Assembly: GCA_964016885.1 (NCBI GenBank)
Contig: OZ024743.1
Coordinates: 340,876,001 to 340,940,000, forward strand
Reading direction: 5' to 3'
From: Eledone cirrhosa
Lineage: Eukaryota
Length of the DNA: 64,000 nt
In this document: positions 16,238 through 56,309 of the stretch, in pieces
Numbering within the stretch: position 1 is the first letter of the stretch
Layout of the letters: each line of letters begins with the position of its first letter
Notes under the pieces: generated by a model
Told to the model about the DNA's origin: nothing
Databases searched by the model: none
What the model saw: the letters and a program-made list of their open reading frames with translations, nothing else
Program-made: the position numbers and the translations under genes

Positions 16238-17039
16238 ATATATATATATATATATATATATGGATGTGCATATAAGCAGCTGTATATATATATAAGGGGA
16301 GCTTAATGGTTAGAGAATTGGATTACCAATCATGAGGTTACGAGTTCAATTCCCTTTATATCTTTGAGCAAGGGAGATTACTCTTTCAGTTAGGAGTTGC
16401 GATTTTTATATAGTATCAGCTTTCTACTTTCTGAGTTCAAATCTTGCTATTTTCAGACATGGAAACGAGAAGGGCTCGGCCAGGTTTTAAGGCTGCCCTA
16501 TACACACAGTATGTCAATACGACTCCCCTTAGACTCCCTCGGAGTACATCGATGCCTAAACAATGCGTTTATATTTAATAAACACACATAATTCATTCTC
16601 ACACTGAGACATTTACACACTCAGTACTGAGTCAAAAAGCTACACTTTCTCATGTGTACGCGCTACTGCTAATTATTACTAGACTCTCAATCCGCATTAT
16701 ATATACAAATAAACATCTCAATGCGTGTGCGTGCGGCATTGGTCCGGTCTGATAAAGTTCACAACAGTTCTTCTATACTTGAGTAGTAGGACGGTGGTTA
16801 GTTTGTGTCCACTATCATTGCTGCCAAATCCTTGCGCTCTGTCAGTGGTAGTTAGGTCGGAGGCAGACGCGGTGATAGTAGTCTACCCAACTGTTATCTG
16901 TCTGTATCGGTAAGTGGGTGGTAAGCACAATATACACACAATAATATTCGCTCGACTATCACTGTGTGTGTGTTCTTGTTCTATTTATTTACACCAGCCA
17001 TCTCGTCTCACTTCTTTCAGATCGATTATTGATTCGCGG

Positions 17040-19130
17040 TTCGAGACGTTTAAGCCAGTGTGCTTTCTTAATCCTTAAAGTGCCGGCCGACGTTGCGCTC
17101 CGTCGCTAACACTGTGACAATGAGCCTTCCGTCTTTGTTTCTGCATTTGATTAAGTTTTTCGGAAAGACGAGGCTCTAGTGTTGACATGTTCTTTGATCC
17201 GGACGTGTAGAGGCCAGGTGGTGCTACCGATGTAACATTTGTTGTTACACCTGTCACATTCGATCCTATACACGACGTAGAAACGAAAGGAACAGTTCAT
17301 CTGACGTATCGAACAGTTGTTGAGAGAACACGTGTCATCCGATTAGTTAGGTTTCCTCGAGAGGCATCTTCGTAGTGAGGGCCCCAAGTGGGCCATGTGG
17401 ATGTCGAAACCCTCCCTCCGTATGACTCTGGTGCGGGATCTTAAGGAAACACTCACCTTTCGAGTTTCTCTGTCTCCTGTGTCTGGGGTCCCCAATTCCG
17501 TTTGCAAACGATGCTGGATATCCATTGGTTTCCAGCACCCTGTGGAATTGCTTGGTGTGGGTGACACCACCCACGGGTTAACTGCATCTATCTCTTATCT
17601 GCGTGATCTCATTTGTGATGTACCCTTTTGGCACTGTTAGGGAGGGTAGATTTGAAGTGGACAAACAAATACCTTCAGGCCGCCTGGCGGTAAAAGTTGG
17701 TGTTGATCTGCTCCTGTTCCGTGATGTTGAGTCGGGAATCGAGGAGGGCAAGGGACCCGTCGTCGCTGTGGTGCTTAATGCTGAAGTCAATATTCTCAGC
17801 CGTATTGCTGAACGTCTCATAAATCCCATTCGCCATCTCCCGGGAAGACATGAGGATGAGAATGTCATCCACGTATCTTGAGAAGAAGGCGGCGGCGTTA
17901 GGGTGGCAGGTGGTGATTGCCTTGCATTTAAGGCTGTCCATATACGAGATCGCCAGCACACGCGACAGACTTGAATCCATGGGTAGTCCTGAGGTCTGTC
18001 AGTACGTGTGACCGAGAAAATTGAAATATGTGTTGTCAACTACAACGGATAGGAGCTGGTGGATGTCGGTGGAGGTGAGCCCCAAACAGTGTAGGCGGGT
18101 AGGCTGGACACGTTCGGTCAATATGTAGACGGTTGGGTGCGGCCACATCAAGGCTGAAGGTATATCTGTTATCTCTTCGGGCGTTGACGTCTCCCGGCAG
18201 TGTGTTTTGTAGAGGTTTAGGTATTTTGGATAGGAAGCATGAAATTTTGTAAAGCGGTCCTTCCACACTGGATACAATAGGCCTGGTTTTCATGTCAGCC
18301 CCTTGCTTGTGGGTTTTCACGAGATGATAGAAGGCGTGTAGTCTACTTTTCCTCGTAGGGAGGTTGCTTCTAAGCCTCTTCGGAAGTTTCCGCCGGTCGC
18401 ATATGCTGGTCCAAGTGGTGTTGATATGTTCCTCGATCCGCGCAGGAGTGATCCCTGTGACCTTGGAGTAGAGGCAGTCATTGTCAATGTGTTGGAGAGC
18501 TAGGTTGTTGTAGGCCTCTCTGATGATGATGCAGAATTCCTTTCCCTTGTCGGAGGGGAGGTAAACGAGGCGCTTCAATTTCAAATTTGTGAGAGTGGTG
18601 AGTTGTGATTTAGTGAGGTTGTATGTTGTGCGTGCGTGTATCTGTTTGTGTAGGATGTCAGAGATAGAGTGTTTCAACCTGATGAGTTTCGTGTCGAGTT
18701 CGTGGCTGGTGGGTGGGTGTGGTTCGGGTTGTCAAGGCGGTACGTGGGGAATTTGGAGCGAGTTGTGTAGGTGCTGTCATTTCGGTGGTATTGTTGATGG
18801 CGGTTACCCATTTGAGCTAGTAGGCGGCTCGGCAGAAGTTGGCTGCGATGTCGAGTCTAAGTCTGTCGTTGAACCACTGTGAGTCGATGAACTTGGGTCC
18901 GAGCCTTGTCGTTTGTGAGGGTACCAGTTAGGTCGGTGACCAGGTGCGTCGCGTCGTTGAGGTGTGGATCGGTGTTGGTGGACGCGGCAGTGTCGGTTGT
19001 TATGTTGTTGTCCATGATGTGGTGCTGGTCCGTCTGTCTGTTAGTCTTGGTGTGTTCGTTGTAAAGTTAGTTCGAGGTCCATTCGAATTCCGCTTGAGTC
19101 GTTTCTTTTCCGCAATGCTTCGAGCAAACT
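17040..19130 (-). mobile_element. Penelope-like retroelement (RT + C-terminal GIY-YIG endonuclease), frameshifted
   Basis: RT motifs: YLPSDKGKEFCII, FYHLVKTHK..TRPIVSS, FSLDV, NTYFNF, GLPMDSSLS.VLAISYM, FSRYVDDILI, SLALLD, LETNGYP. Endonuclease read manually at ~17190-17285: FYVVYRIECDRCNNKCYIGSTTWPLHVRIKEH. Confidence 0.93.
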
Positions 19131-19434: not shown

Positions 19435-19897
19435 GACTATATATATGTGTTTATATCTATATTATATCTGTATTTTTGACCGTTGGTCAGTCAAATGAGA
19501 TTAATCGCCTCATTTACACAGACGAGAACACCATATATTCTCGCCTGTTTTCAAGTCCTGCAGTTGCAACAGAGCGCAGGATACCCCGATGAGAACCAGT
19601 TAAGTTCGAAATGCTTTGACGGTTGTCGCCCCTGCTTCTGCTGGGCACCACCACAGGGCGACAGCCTTGGTGCTTTGCATAGCTACTGCTTTCTAAATGT
19701 TTATCCATAAACATACCGTATTTCTTTAGAAATACGAAATTTTGATACATATCTGTATGCAGTTATGCATGAGGCTAAATCCTAATTATATATATATATA
19801 TAATATATATATATATATATAAATATATATAATTGGTGTTGGATGGTTAAAGCGTCCGTATGCGGTAGGCCGTATGAGCACTCGATGCTCTCATAGT

Positions 19898-31146: not shown

Positions 31147-31211
31147 CGTGTGCGTCTGAGTGTGCGTCTGCGTGTGGGTATCTGTATGCCTGCGTATGTA
31201 TGTATATGCGT

Positions 31212-31807
31212 GTGTTTAATGCGTAATAATCAACATCAACAAGCATTGTGAGGCACCTGTTTGAATAGAATATCCATATAGCTGCATAATAAAGGCATTA
31301 CACACAATATATGGAGGCTATAGTCTTGTTTCATACCAAAAGAGATCGTTTTGTTGGTGATAAGGAATCCATACATCTGCTTGGCAATCCCTGGCATATT
31401 TGCAAAATATCCCGCATTATTCAGTCGTTAGAATATGAATTCAAATTAGGATATGCACAGGACATAGACAATGGAAAAAACAACGGAAAAAACGGACAGT
31501 CCCATATCCTCTGTCAACCTCTAGAAACCATTACGGTTTCGACATATTAAAGTGGATACCATTCATTCCAGTGCACATTGGCATACAATAAAACAAGTAG
31601 AGAAAAGTTATGACTTAACGCGAATTACACAAATATAGAAGAACAAGTATCCCAAGTGCGTCAACTGACAAATAAGGGAAAAAATGGTGCTCAAGAGTTT
31701 AGCCAAAAGAATATAAAATATAGACAAGAGAGAAATAGCAAAACACAAGAGAATAATATGGATTGTAATCCGACGCAGACAAAGAAGAATGACAAGACGG
31801 GCGGTGT

Positions 31808-31868
<61 letters not shown>

Positions 31869-31888
31869 CTCTCTCTCTCTCTCTCTCA

Positions 31889-31945
<57 letters not shown>

Positions 31946-32555
31946 TAGACAGAGATCACACCGCCCGGCTTGTCATTCTTCTTTGTCTGCGTCGGATGAC
32001 AATCCATATTATTCTCTTCTGTTTTGCTATTTCTCTCTTGTCTATATTTTATATTCTTTTGGCTAAACTCTTGAGCACCATTTTTTCCCTTATTTGTCAG
32101 TTGACGCACTTGGGATACTTGTTCTTCTATATTTGTGTAATTCGCGTTAAGTCATAACTTTTCTCTACTTGTTTTATTGTATGCCAATGTGCACTGGAAT
32201 GAATGGTATCCACTTTAATATGTCGAAACCGTAATGGTTTCTAGAGGTTGACAGAGGATATGGGACTGTCCGTTTTTCCGTTGTTTTTTCCATTGTCTAT
32301 GTCCTGTGCATATCCTAATTTGAATTCATATTCTAACGACTGAATAATGCGGGATATTTTGCAAATGCTAAATGCCAGGGATTGCCAAGCAGATGTAGGG
32401 ATTCCTAATCACCAACAAAACGATCTCTTTTGGTATGAAACAAGATTATAGCCTACATATATTGTGTGTAATGCCTTTATTATGCAGCTATATAGATATT
32501 CTATTCATACAGGTGTCTCACAATGCTTGTTGATGTTGATTATTACGCATTAAAC

Positions 32556-32557
<2 letters not shown>
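31212..32557. repeat. Long inverted repeat (~600 bp near-identical arms) centred on (CT)n(TA)n(GA)n
   Basis: 31212-31812 is the reverse complement of ~31955-32557. The ORF track shows the same peptide MRQLTNKGKNGAQEFSQK on both strands. Confidence 0.95.
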
Positions 32558-32612
<55 letters not shown>

Positions 32613-40664: not shown

Positions 40665-40767
40665 GTGTGCGTGTGTGTGTGTATAGTCGGACAAATAAAA
40701 TAAAATAAACACAGAGATGCAAATATACAAAGTTTTACTAATATCGCGCTTGGTAGGTGGAGGAAGG

Positions 40768-40801
40768 TTCTACGTTTCGGACGGAAGTCGTTCGTCAGGA
40801 A
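40768..40801 (-). ncRNA. Minimal hammerhead motif in a PLE-like terminus (~40685-41000)
   Basis: uuc CUGACGA ac GAC uucc GUC c GAAA CG UA gaa. Stem I is 3 bp and the core is intact. Confidence 0.65.
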
Positions 40802-41319
40802 ATGGAGAGATCGCCGTATAGAGAGAGAACAGGTAGGTACATGAAATGTTGGAAAACTTGTTAGGTTGGGGTTGTTAGGTGAGTGGTCTGGCATTCGGAA
40901 GTGGGGCCGAATTGGAGTGCCCAGGTGTGGCATGTCCAGTTGTATATGTGCTGATAGGGTGAAATTGATTGGTGTGCATTATTGCTTCAGCTCGTGTATG
41001 TGAACATGTACGTGTCTCTGATTGTTGATGTGAGCACATTGGTGTATATATATTCAATTATACTACACGGCTCGGAAAAATCACTTTCAAAGAGCTATTT
41101 AATTAAAAGAGACTATTTTGAGTTTGTAACTTAATATATACCTATGATATATTCGGCTCCTTCAATTTGTCGAGCTTATTTAAATTTCGAGTAAACTTGG
41201 CTGCTATTAGTAGTATACGTTTGTGAGACACGCTAGGTTCTGATGCCATGTGCGTTATTTTATATACGCACACTATTCAGTCTTCTGAGATACTTAGAAG
41301 TGAAGAGTTTACTAATTTT

Positions 41320-41401
41320 ACACCCACTGATGAGCAAAAGAATTGGTAATTCTTTTCAAAATTAAATTGCGAAACAGCATCACCAAACGCTGTCTGGGTG
41401 T
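41320..41401 (+). ncRNA. Canonical type I hammerhead ribozyme
   Basis: Stem I ACACCCA/UGGGUGU (7 bp), CUGAUGA, stem II GCAA/UUGC, GAAA, stem III ACAGC/GCUGU, GUC triplet with cleavage after 41394. Confidence 0.9.
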
Positions 41402-41694
41402 CTGGTAGTTACCACAATATCGGTTTGTATTTATTTTCTTGATTTATCTTAAATTGAGTCTGGCAAACCCGATTGTTCATAGTTAGTATCTTTTTACCCC
41501 TAGCGAATCTAGTCGCTTACGATTTGAACACATTTATGTATATATCTGTGTTTATCTCTATTTTATATTCAATTATACTCTACGGCTCGGAAAAATCTCT
41601 TTCCTTGAGCTATTTAATTGCAATAGACGATTTTGAGTTTCTAACTCAATATATACCCTTGATATATATATATATATATCAAGGGTATATCCAT

Positions 41695-42453
41695 TTTCGG
41701 GAATCTGAATTAATAATTCGTATTAGTTTCGGAACTCTGAATTACTATTTCGTATTAGGCTTTTTTTAGTATTTCGGCCCCCTCTTGTTGACCTGTCATT
41801 GTAAGATAGATTTGGCCGATTACTACTTACTCATAAAATTCTTTCACTACAATCTTGTATTTAGTTTTCCGCCCCACCTATTAAACTTTTCTATAGCTTA
41901 GCAGTACCAGTGAGAGATTTGATGATTGTGGAAGGGGACTAGTAGCCAGAAATTGTGTTGTTTTTAAATATTTTTTATATTTTTTATATTTTTCTATATA
42001 TTTACTCCATATAGATTTACTTATTGTTTCGACTTACTCCACCTCCCCTTCTCTAGTATACTTTTTTCGACCTCTTAACCTTAGATTCTACTGTAGTTGT
42101 CACTTTCAACGCTTGACTAGGTTTCCTCCACTCCCTCTCCCTCTTTCTTCTACTGGCAAGTTCAGCTACCCCTACCTTCCACAAAATGCCATGATAGAAT
42201 CATGTGTCTCAACAACAAACTTTTGATCAATCCTTGTGACAATTACTTTTACCATATATGGAATTACCCCCTGAGAAGTTCGGCTATTCATTTACCAGGA
42301 TAAACATTTTCATTTAGTCCACAATTAGCCGTCGAAACGGGTTGAGCTCAGCCGTCGGGTTCTACTAGTTCCTATTTCCCACTCTACTACCCTAAGTCTT
42401 GAGTACTTTGGTGCGTTATGGTCCATCTGGTCCCTTACCACATTTCCTTCGTT
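41695..42453 (+). mobile_element. Long diverged family A element with HHR (42266-42360)
   Basis: Collinear with 55500-56310 (ttagtattt.ggcccc.t.ttgttgacc; accatatatggaattacccc; catttccttcgt|tata). The core reads CUGAGAA. Confidence 0.8.
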
Positions 42454-42618
42454 ATATATATATATATATACTCTTTTACTCTTTTACCTGTTCCAGCCAT
42501 CCGGCTGAGGCCATACTGGGGCACCACCCTTGTGATATGTATAGAAAATATGTGTAAGTATATGTATGTTCGGAACTAGCTGTTGAAACGGCGGGAGCTC
42601 AGCCGGGGTCCCGAATCC

Positions 42619-42678
<60 letters not shown>

Positions 42679-54108: not shown

Positions 54109-54152
<44 letters not shown>

Positions 54153-54156
<4 letters not shown>

Positions 54157-56309
54157 AACCAGTAAGACCCCGACAGCTGAGCTCAAGCCGTTTCGACGGC
54201 TAATTCTGGACTAAATGAAAATTTATCCTGGTATTTAAATAGCCGATCTTCTCAAGGGGTAATTCCATATATGGTCAAAGTGATTGTCAAAAATCAGTAG
54301 TAATTCTGTGGTTGCAAATTAGTAGGGGAGATGGTGGCTAAACCTGCCAGTAAGAGAAAGAGGGGAGGGGGTGGAGTAGCCCCAATCAAGCGTTTGTAGT
54401 GCCAGCTACAGCTGGGCATGAGGTCAAAGAAGATACAGGGGGAGGGGGAGGAAGTCGGAACGGTAGGTAGAACAATGGGGGGTAGAAATAATACTGAGAG
54501 TGAAGAAAAGCAAATAAGTGTAAAGAAAAACAAATGAGTGTAAAGAAAAAAGTAAAGTAAATTAAATTCTACGACCTAGGTCTCTAGCTATTGTTAGTCT
54601 AGAAAAAATAAATAAATAAAGAAAGAAAGAAGTAAAGAAAGAAATAAAGAAATAACGAAATAAGTAAAAGAACTAGGTGGGACGGATTAGGCGAGGACCC
54701 TTTTAAGTGGTATAAGTACGTAAATGATACGGTGACGGGTCAACAAAAGGGGCCAAAATACTAAAGAGACTACCACGAAATAAACAATAAAGGTTTCCAT
54801 CCCGGGCACAATTCCGGCAACCACCCAGTGCAGCAAAGTGAACTAATACGAGATAATAATTCTGAGTCCCGAGAAAAATATATACTAATGCTAACTCTAA
54901 AAGATCTAAAACAAGCTACATGAAAGTTCGTACGAAGTAAAAGTAGAATACGGAAGAATACATTCAGAATCCACTCCGCCCAAAAGAAAAGCGAAGAAAG
55001 AAATACTGAAACGAAAAAATAAGGCATAAGTGCCACTAAGAAATATAGAGGGCACAGAGAGTAGTGGGAGCGGTCGGAAAAAGGGGACAAGTATCCGGGG
55101 TCTAAACCAACTGCTATAAAGGGCGGAGTCCGCCAAATCTATCCTAGACTAGGGGAGGGGGTGGGGGTACTAAGGCTACAAGGGGCCAAAGGGCAGCCTC
55201 GGGTGGGCGAGAAAAGACGCCGACAAAGGAGAAGAGCTGGGGTAGAAGGACTAAGGAGAGAGGGGGGGAAGGAAGGAAATAAAGGAAGCGATAAAAGAAT
55301 ACAAAGAAGATCTTACGTCTCCCTTGGCAAGCAGGGGTTACCCATTGCAAAATCGGCAAGTGGGGTGTTATAGCCCTAGTCTACCCCCCCAGGTCATTTT
55401 GGGGTTTGAGGGCGAGGTAAGTCCTACGCAATCTATGTTTACATGCAGTAACCAGTTCATCTTTCTTGTTTTAGATCTTTTAGAGTTAGCATTAGTATAT
55501 ATTTTTCTCGGGACTCAGAATTATTATCTCGTACTAGTTCACTTTGCTGCACTGGGTGGTTGCCGGAATTGTGCCCGGGATGGAAACCTTTATTGTTTAT
55601 TTCGTGGTAGTCTCTTTAGTATTTTGGCCCCTTTTGTTGACCCGTCACCGTATCATTTACGTACTTATACCTCTTAAAAGGGTCCTCGCCTAATCCGTCC
55701 CACCTAGTTCTTTTACTTATTTCGTTATTTCTTTATTTCTTTCTTTACTTCTTTCTTTCTTTCTTTATTTATTTTTTCTAGACTAACAATAGCTAGAGAC
55801 CTAGGTCGTAGAATTTAATTTACTTTACTTTTTTCTTTACACTCATTTGTTTTTCTTTACACTTATTTGCTTTTCTTCACTCTCAGTATTATTTCTACCC
55901 CCCATTGTTCTACCTACCGTTCCGACTTCCTCCCCCCTCCCCCTCCCCTGTATCTTCTTTGACCTCATGCCCAGCTGTAGCTGGCACTACAAACGCTTGA
56001 TTGGGGCTACTCCACCCCTCCCCACTTTCTCCTACTGGCAGGTTTAGCCACCATCTCCCCTACTAATTTGCAACCACAGAATTACTACTGATTTTTGACA
56101 ATCACTTTGACCATATATGGAATTACCCCTTGAGAAGATCGGCTATTTAAATACCAGGATAAATTTTCATTTAGTCCAGAATTAGCCGTCGAAACGGCTT
56201 GAGCTCAGCTGTCGGGGTCTTACTGGTTCCTATTACCCACTCTACTACCTCAAGTATTGAGTACTTTGGTGCGTTATGGTCCACCTGGTTCCTTACCACA
56301 TTTCCTTCG

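What the first reader, a model, noticed from the sequence alone, without database searches (positions are those of the whole stretch)
41045..41665. Perfect canonical hammerhead inside a 515-nt terminally redundant non-coding unit (retrozyme-like)
Seen: the HHR at 41320-41401 has every core nucleotide and fully paired stems. A ~100 bp block (tattcaattatact..acggctcggaaaaatc..gagctatttaatt..attttgagttt.taact.aatatatacc) occurs at 41051 and again at 41566, giving a 515-nt period with no ORF. Established: non-LTR retrozymes are tandem or partially redundant 150-1000 nt units with one HHR that yield circular RNAs. Inference: this is a cDNA copy of slightly more than one round of a ~515-nt circular RNA, or a PLE pLTR.
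Basis: partly seen in the sequence, partly recalled or inferred. Interest (0 to 1): 0.8.

Follow-up and report, generated by a model that had tools for sequence, protein, structure and literature searches.

The report
Hammerhead retrozyme riding Hydra Penelope elements
A 515-base non-coding repeat with a hammerhead ribozyme motif is scattered in at least hundreds of copies through this animal genome, and it shares two fixed end points and the predicted hairpins beside them with a protein-coding Penelope-type jumping gene that likely copies it, probably from a circular RNA.

Summary
In detail: a type I hammerhead (41320-41401, predicted cut after C41394) and a 104-nt block repeated at a 515-nt offset (86.5% identical), with no ORF. 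The copy belongs to a dispersed family (260 exact hammerhead-pattern hits, control 0). Across 72 insertions, arms stop at two fixed points 88 nt apart (41577, 41665), mostly against (TA)n; 53 have an inverted second arm; none is a terminal repeat behind an ORF. That is the footprint of a Penelope-like element (PLE), so this is a non-autonomous PLE of the non-LTR retrozyme kind. New here: each fixed end lies 5-7 nt before a predicted GGCUC...GAGCU hairpin, and young Hydra-clade PLEs with intact ORFs in the same genome show the same order (hammerhead, end, hairpin, end, hairpin). One insertion joins this element directly to a Hydra ORF. A sister family keeps the hammerhead fold with a changed stem I and a U3-A8 core. 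Cleavage, expression and the circle are untested; the active fold is 2.4 kcal/mol above the minimum. The scan noted similar PLE/hammerhead mini-elements on other DNA.

The parts
41049..41665 (+). One arm of the non-autonomous element: 617 nt = 1.2 periods, 5'-truncated, ending at the family's long end L
41049..41152 (+). Upstream copy of the redundant block (second round of the period)
   Evidence: 86.5% identical to 41564-41667
41069..41096 (+). Predicted hairpin H1 (GGCUC...GAGCU), begins 7 nt after the short end S in register (41062)
   Evidence: upper stem differs but pairs in the sister family and in Hydra PLEs
41118..41134 (+). Predicted middle hairpin (GAGUU...AACU) between H1 and H2; a GAGU...ACUC hairpin sits at the same place in the sister family and Hydra family A
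41155..41176 (+). Predicted hairpin H2 (GGCUC...GAGCU), begins 5 nt after the long end L in register (41150); absent from the 3' end of L-ended arms
41320..41401 (+). Type I hammerhead motif, predicted cleavage after C41394
41577..41577 (+). Short fixed end S (inferred first reverse-transcription start), 183 nt after the cleavage site
   Evidence: 47 arms end here; loose ends to (TA)n in read contigs
41578..41665 (+). 88-nt 'tail' between the two ends; holds the second copy of H1 at 41584
41665..41665 (+). Long fixed end L (inferred second start), 271 nt after the cleavage site
   Evidence: 62 arms end here
41662..41679 (.). (AT)n target tract, centre of a perfect 40-nt palindrome 41651-41690

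Best explanation
This is one 5'-truncated copy of an ORF-less, hammerhead-bearing repeat family with a 515-nt period that inserts at (TA)n with the two-ended footprint of Penelope-like elements, and it is likely copied by the reverse transcriptase-endonuclease of Hydra-clade PLEs, probably from a circular RNA. Steps: (1) a rare locus with two hammerheads in tandem is transcribed (such a locus is shown; transcription inferred); (2) both hammerheads cut after GUC and the monomer is ligated into a ~515-nt circle (inferred from other retrozymes; untested); (3) the Hydra protein binds the hairpin module (module shown in both elements; binding inferred); (4) it nicks both strands of (TA)n and starts cDNA at two internal sites, S and L, just 5' of the hairpins (ends shown; two-site internal start taken from the anole PLE in vitro); (5) the cDNAs run through the uncut hammerhead site for variable lengths and are joined head to head (shown in the copies). 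My odds: non-autonomous PLE 0.9, Hydra partner 0.8, circular template 0.65.
For: Family: 4103 first-look candidates, 40 scored at 85-91% identity; 260 exact hammerhead-pattern hits, reversed control 0. Footprint in 72 distinct insertions: 53 two-armed; of 126 arms 62 end at L, 47 at S, 17 elsewhere; TA-rich flank at 40 of 62 L and 32 of 47 S ends but 2 of 17 others. This matches the PLE structure in PMC8557442 and the two internal starts in PMC11167929. Duplicated parts within an insertion are closer than between insertions in 45 of 48 direct and 45 of 47 inverted comparisons. Hammerhead under constraint: 0 of 40 core and stem columns vary between subfamilies against 53 of 514 overall, p about 0.01; the 559-nt sister family has a different but paired stem I and a U3-A8 core, a variant known from PLE hammerheads. 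Partner: the strict hairpin motif occurs twice per period in both families and only 3 times in the window, all in this element; Hydra family A ends at the same two places (18 L and 5 S of 26 ends); families B and C, fetched by protein likeness and not by the motif, carry hammerhead plus both hairpins, and family C ends there (6 L, 4 S of 12); six end regions of non-Hydra PLEs lack the motif; intact 844-aa ORFs are 98-100% alike over the 162 aa searched; one insertion joins the L end directly to a Hydra ORF. Circle: an L-ended arm lacks H2 behind its end, so a linear transcript would lose one period per generation, yet arms above one period are common and none above 1.6 was found; of 42 shorter arms 14 pass the cleavage site and 1 stops at it; the circular fold beats 60 of 60 shuffles (z -3.3).
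Against: No RNA evidence of any kind. The active hammerhead fold is not the minimum-energy fold. With the terminal stem I pair included the constraint test is not significant (2 of 42, p 0.17), and that pair's compensatory change follows the subfamily split, one event. The sister family also holds a subfamily with U3-G8 and an unpaired base of stem II, so catalysis may be relaxed; in the anole PLE cleavage was not needed for insertion, and 8 of 9 frog retrozyme dimers did not cleave. Outside the ~140-nt module no nucleotide likeness to Hydra pLTRs was found; family A was found with the motif itself, so its alignment score is biased. The chimera is one case of 72, has two S-type outer ends, and a later deletion would explain it too. 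This copy's own two blocks are 13.5% apart, no closer than random copies (rank 0.47), although they share one rare letter (41063). The samples favour long arms. Autonomous Hydra copies also form partial tandems, so template jumping needs no circle.
Confidence: 0.6

Rival explanations
1. A non-autonomous Hydra-type PLE that moves without a circle: linear read-through RNA is the template, the reverse transcriptase jumps between RNA molecules to build partial tandems, and the hammerhead is weak or dispensable.
For: Uncleaved RNA is the main substrate of the anole PLE in vitro. Full-length Hydra and other PLE copies form the same partial tandems. Active fold suboptimal; drifted cores in the sister family. 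Chimera L308 would itself be a template jump.
Against: Both rounds and both arms mostly come from the same variant; arms do not pile up at the cleavage site; core and stems are constrained; circles are shown for coral, mussel and axolotl retrozymes.
Confidence: 0.27
2. The element is non-autonomous but is moved by another PLE clade (the Neptune-like or 'PLE-A' families, which also end in (TA)n); the shared hairpins are a relic of origin.
For: These families are abundant, some near intact, with the same two-armed structure.
Against: Their end regions lack the hairpin motif (0 in 6 regions) and show no likeness to the unit beyond TA-rich stretches; both retrozyme families keep the hairpins exactly at their ends.
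Confidence: 0.07
3. An ordinary pseudo-LTR: the stump of an ORF-bearing PLE whose full-length form was not sampled.
For: All footprint features are those of truncated PLEs; only 72 of several thousand insertions were examined.
Against: 5' of the hammerhead the copies run into the unit's own sequence and then into its own 3' end; two hammerheads 519 nt apart lie in direct tandem (L135); ORF pieces near 8 insertions lie downstream or beyond a (TA)n tract and unrelated DNA.
Confidence: 0.04

Closest known systems
Metazoan non-LTR retrozymes (Cervera and de la Pena 2020, PMC7229834; seen: parts 2-3 of 6 and passages)
   Same: ORF-less repeat with one type I hammerhead per unit, GC 33%, many copies, self-paired predicted circle, PLEs in the same genome; the authors name PLEs as the likely mover.
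   Different: Unit 515 nt against 150-450 bp; dispersed two-armed insertions of at most 1.6 periods rather than arrays up to 62-mers; 29-nt loop II; expression and circle untested; a specific partner clade is indicated here.
Animal retrozymes as non-autonomous PLE derivatives (Li, Clavereau, Pollet, bioRxiv 10.64898/2026.07.22.740005; seen: parts 1-3 of 5, supplements closed)
   Same: Same overall conclusion; units of 51-972 bp; monomers dispersed, multimers rare.
   Different: Their evidence is co-occurrence and pLTR phylogeny in vertebrates; the text read has no insertion-end analysis, start sites or hairpin module, and finds Hydra only in a coral.
PLE insertion units and the Hydra clade (Craig et al. 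2021, PMC8557442; seen: passages and a few supplement rows)
   Same: 5' truncation, partial tandem, inverted upstream copy, tail at one end, (TA)n targets; partner ORF with RW, DKT, CxCX5C and C-terminal GIY-YIG; non-autonomous Chlamys elements are a precedent.
   Different: Tail 88 nt against 30-40 bp; no ORF; partner period 4.7-4.9 kb against the <3 kb typical of Hydra.
Anole Poseidon element in vitro (Frangieh et al. 2024, PMC11167929; seen: parts 1-2 of 4)
   Same: Two internal starts 3' of the hammerhead define the tail; both target strands are extended; AT-rich target; sequence 3' of the start is needed.
   Different: Another clade; start in an AC-rich stem-loop inside the ORF; here the starts are inferred from genomic ends and lie 5' of GGCUC/GAGCU hairpins.

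Membership tests
Type I hammerhead ribozyme | Core CUGANGA, GAAA, UH triplet | tested here: met
   intact in 36 of 50 arms
Type I hammerhead ribozyme | Three helices, stem I open | tested here: met
   7/4/5 bp; sister family with different paired stem I
Type I hammerhead ribozyme | Active fold favoured; loop 1-loop 2 contacts | tested here: inconclusive
   active fold 2.4 kcal/mol above minimum; no Rfam hit; tertiary contacts not modelled
Type I hammerhead ribozyme | Self-cleavage | not testable with these tools
   needs in vitro transcription
Non-LTR retrozyme | Repeat unit with one type I hammerhead, no ORF, GC below 50% | tested here: met
Non-LTR retrozyme | Unit size (150-450 bp in 2020; 51-972 bp in 2026) | tested here: met
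   515 nt: outside the first range, inside the second
Non-LTR retrozyme | Tandem copies with two or more hammerheads | tested here: inconclusive
   one direct pair among the first 100 of 260 listed hits; sister dimers L166, L176; no array; the other 160 hits were not listed
Non-LTR retrozyme | Expressed as circular RNA | not testable with these tools
   only contigs of runs of unrecorded kind were available
Non-LTR retrozyme | Target-site duplication longer than 4 bp | tested here: inconclusive
   hidden by (TA)n targets
PLE insertion unit | Fixed 3' end, 5' truncation, partial tandem | tested here: met
PLE insertion unit | Inverted upstream arm and a tail at one end | tested here: met
   53 of 72 two-armed; tail 88 nt; this copy is single-armed
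Autonomous PLE | RT plus GIY-YIG ORF upstream of the pLTR | tested here: not met
Hydra clade (partner L231) | RW, DKT, CxCX5C linker, C-terminal GIY-YIG, (TA)n, hammerhead | tested here: met
   motifs against criteria; hammerheads; no Pfam or PDB match
Hydra clade (partner L231) | Placement in the Hydra clade of an RT tree | not tested
   no reference Hydra proteins were held

The most novel reading that the evidence does not exclude
The paired GGCUC...GAGCU hairpins are the recognition signal of Hydra-clade PLE proteins and set their two start sites; circular hammerhead RNAs carry this ~140-nt module to hijack the enzyme, which rolls round the circle from either site. That would name, for the first time in the papers I found, the enzyme and the cis signal that move an animal retrozyme.
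Probability: 0.45. Interest if true: 0.78.

Novelty: new variant of a known kind. Interest (0 to 1): 0.6.

Why it matters
What mobilises animal non-LTR retrozymes is open: PLEs are proposed from co-occurrence and pLTR phylogeny. Here a retrozyme family, a candidate partner clade with young intact ORFs, two start sites mapped to a few bases and a shared RNA module sit in one genome, so the question becomes a defined in vitro assay of the kind already run for the anole element. The same assay separates circular from linear templates, which bears on what hammerheads do in PLEs at all. The element itself is one copy among many of a known kind.

Tried and rejected
Rfam at gathering score and at E<=10: no hammerhead hit. 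Expression: no RNA holder listed; the three runs laid are contigs of one sample and say nothing on RNA; their summed depth was not used as a copy number. Direct pattern count of tandem hammerhead pairs could not be run, so dimers were sought only among 100 listed hits and by a longer query. A same-strand hammerhead pair 2684 nt apart looked like pLTR-ORF-pLTR but is a local duplication without ORF (L134). The idea that the upstream minus-strand PLE end (40682-41046) is this insertion's inverted arm was dropped: it belongs to an older family (71-82% alike) with no link to the unit in 14 other loci. PLE-A and Neptune-like families as parents: no shared pLTR sequence; unit pieces near them sit in their terminal (TA)n. 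Enrichment of 5' ends at the cleavage site: none. Pfam and PDB do not recognise the Hydra protein. Literature: searches returned no paper on this module or on a retrozyme-Hydra link (listings, plus the passages named); two searches for the core variant returned nothing, 68 found it. Repbase and Dfam were not searchable, and the bioRxiv supplements and most of the Craig supplement were not seen; they may already hold this family. The words octopus and cephalopod in searches were my guess from composition; the host was not established.

Full report
Observation. The hammerhead is present at 41320-41401 with a complete core and 7, 4 and 5 Watson-Crick pairs in stems I-III; C17 is 41394. The block 41049-41152 recurs at 41564-41667 with 86.5% identity and no gaps. 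No frame of 120 aa overlaps it. Against a simple reading: Rfam misses it, loop II is 29 nt, and the active fold is 2.4 kcal/mol above the minimum.

The family. The window lies in a 3.0-Gb genome. The stretch gave 4103 first-look candidates; the 40 scored are 85-91% identical. An exact two-part hammerhead pattern has 260 hits against 0 for the reversed control. I examined 80 loci from three searches and dropped 8 duplicates. In the 72 left, 53 have two arms on opposite strands joined head to head. Of 126 arms, 62 end at 41665 (L), 47 at 41577 (S) and 17 elsewhere; TA-rich DNA follows 40 L ends, 32 S ends and 2 others. The 5' ends vary. Upstream of the hammerhead the copies run into the unit's own sequence and then its own 3' end, so the period is 515 nt with no ORF. 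The longest arm is 821 nt; no array was found; one locus holds two hammerheads in direct tandem (L135). The first two searches favour long arms.

This is the PLE footprint. Craig et al. describe 5' truncation, partial tandems, an inverted upstream copy and a 30-40-bp tail (passages). Frangieh et al. show in vitro that an anole PLE nicks and extends both strands of AT-rich DNA and starts cDNA at two internal RNA sites whose interval is the tail (parts 1-2). I therefore read S and L as the two starts (inference). Autonomous PLEs in this genome show the same two-armed structure.

The hammerhead looks maintained. In 44 arms chosen by overall likeness, none of 40 core and stem columns varies between subfamilies, against 53 of 514 columns (p about 0.01); with the terminal stem I pair it is 2 of 42 (p 0.17). 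That pair is A-U in 23 and U-A in 41 of 70 loci, but the change follows the subfamily split and counts once. A younger sister family (559-nt period, 94-99% alike) aligns along the whole unit, has the same two ends, includes true dimers, and carries at the same place a different 8-bp stem I, the same stem II base, GUC, and U3-A8 in place of C3-G8, a core variant reported in PLE hammerheads (passage). Some of its copies have U3-G8 and an unpaired stem II base, which argues for relaxed catalysis.

A shared end module points to the partner. A GGCUC...GAGCY hairpin motif occurs twice per period in both families, beginning 7 nt after S and 5 nt after L; its three occurrences in the window all lie in this element. 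A pattern for the pair has 896 hits against 11 controls; the listed ones are related families, an 83-nt satellite and an ORF-bearing element (L220). That element reads hammerhead, end, hairpin, end, hairpin, ORF. Its relative L231 has an intact 844-aa ORF with RVRW, SDKT, YRDD, CxCX5C and a C-terminal YIGST, the features given for the Hydra clade; Pfam and PDB give no match and no tree was built. Of 26 ends of this family 18 are at L and 5 at S. Many copies have intact frames and are 98-100% alike over the 162 aa searched. Because family A was found with the motif, I fetched 16 loci by protein likeness, most at 64-72% identity: in the 14 that could be parsed both hairpins are readable by eye, allowing single changes, behind a hammerhead where the 5' region is present; family B has a U3-A8 core. 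Family C ends at L in 6 and near S in 4 of 12 cases. The upper stem of H1 differs among the five families but pairs in each predicted fold. Six end regions of non-Hydra PLEs hold no such motif, although the relaxed motif is rare enough (7 per window strand) that this absence alone is weak. Outside the module no nucleotide likeness to Hydra was found.

One chimera. Six of 72 insertions have Hydra ORF pieces nearby. In L062/L308 the order is (TA)n, inverted S arm, L arm, then directly a Hydra ORF from residue 366 to its 3' end, then (TA)n. A template jump from Hydra RNA onto this RNA at L fits; a later deletion also fits. In L006 and L026 a (TA)n tract intervenes.

Circle or line. H2 lies 3' of L, so an L-ended arm lacks it at its end. 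If L starts need H2 (inference), a linear transcript loses one period per generation, yet 47 of 62 L arms exceed one period in this long-biased sample and no source above 1.6 periods was seen. Of 42 shorter arms, 14 pass the cleavage site, 1 stops there, 27 stop short. Duplicated parts within an insertion are closer than between insertions in 45 of 48 and 45 of 47 tests. The unit folded as a circle beats 60 of 60 shuffles. These favour a circle but do not exclude jumping between sibling RNAs; full-length Hydra copies form partial tandems too, and cleavage was dispensable in the anole system. This copy's own blocks are unusually far apart (13.5% against a mean of 6.5%), so it is probably an older or more mutated copy; with one hammerhead it could not itself yield a monomer circle.

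Comparison and verdict. It works like a non-LTR retrozyme and meets the sequence criteria; tandem multimers are rare and expression is untested. The PLE origin of such elements is already proposed. What my searches did not find in print is the end module shared with a named clade. Earlier notes of this scan describe similar PLE mini-elements in other genomes; none matched this sequence or genome. New variant of a known kind; interest 0.6.

Noticed in passing
window 40682-41046 (-): 3' end of an older PLE-like family (71-82% alike among copies) with a minimal hammerhead-like motif near 40770-40800; it abuts the 5' end of the finding.
   Followed up: partly
window 41651-41690: Perfect 40-nt palindrome centred on the (AT)n target; it repeats this copy's rare letter, so it formed at or after insertion. 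A similar tail-to-tail palindrome is in L156.
   Followed up: partly
window 42265-42470 and 42567-42651: Another hammerhead-like repeat family (core CUGAGAA, long stems), also seen as inverted pairs in L010, L012, L024.
   Followed up: no
window 16992-19108 (-): Broken RT plus GIY-YIG PLE ('PLE-A'); near-intact relatives elsewhere have a 40-nt tail, and my scanner found no CUGANGA hammerhead in their pLTR.
   Followed up: partly
window 19438-19700 (+): Repeat with a degenerate hammerhead-like motif and a T-rich end resembling the unit's short end.
   Followed up: no
L166 (G000:C5:125290273-125293523): Younger sister family, 559-nt period, U3-A8 core, ~60-nt insertion in loop III, true dimers; a better candidate for expression tests.
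   Followed up: yes
L196 (G000:C5:107165000-107174999), 380-1837: Unrelated hammerhead family, 554-nt period, 2.6 tandem copies plus an inverted arm, palindromic minimal stem III.
   Followed up: partly
L074, L098, L099, L101, L103: Many minimal hammerheads with 8-bp AU-rich stem I and palindromic loop III, often in inverted pairs.
   Followed up: no
G000:C1:214423414-214425581: 83-nt tandem satellite that matches the hairpin-pair pattern.
   Followed up: no
window 54152-56233 and 31195-32574: Large inverted repeats, 94-99% complementary, possibly two-armed PLE insertions.
   Followed up: no
window 14525, 20660, 39715, 59648, 59918, 63384: ~190-nt dispersed repeat, also common in the flanks of fetched loci; SINE-like by my impression.
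   Followed up: no
L136-L165: Several Neptune-like PLE families (CxxxxCxxC linker) ending in (TA)n; relatives of the unit sit in those terminal tracts in 3 of 30 loci.
   Followed up: partly
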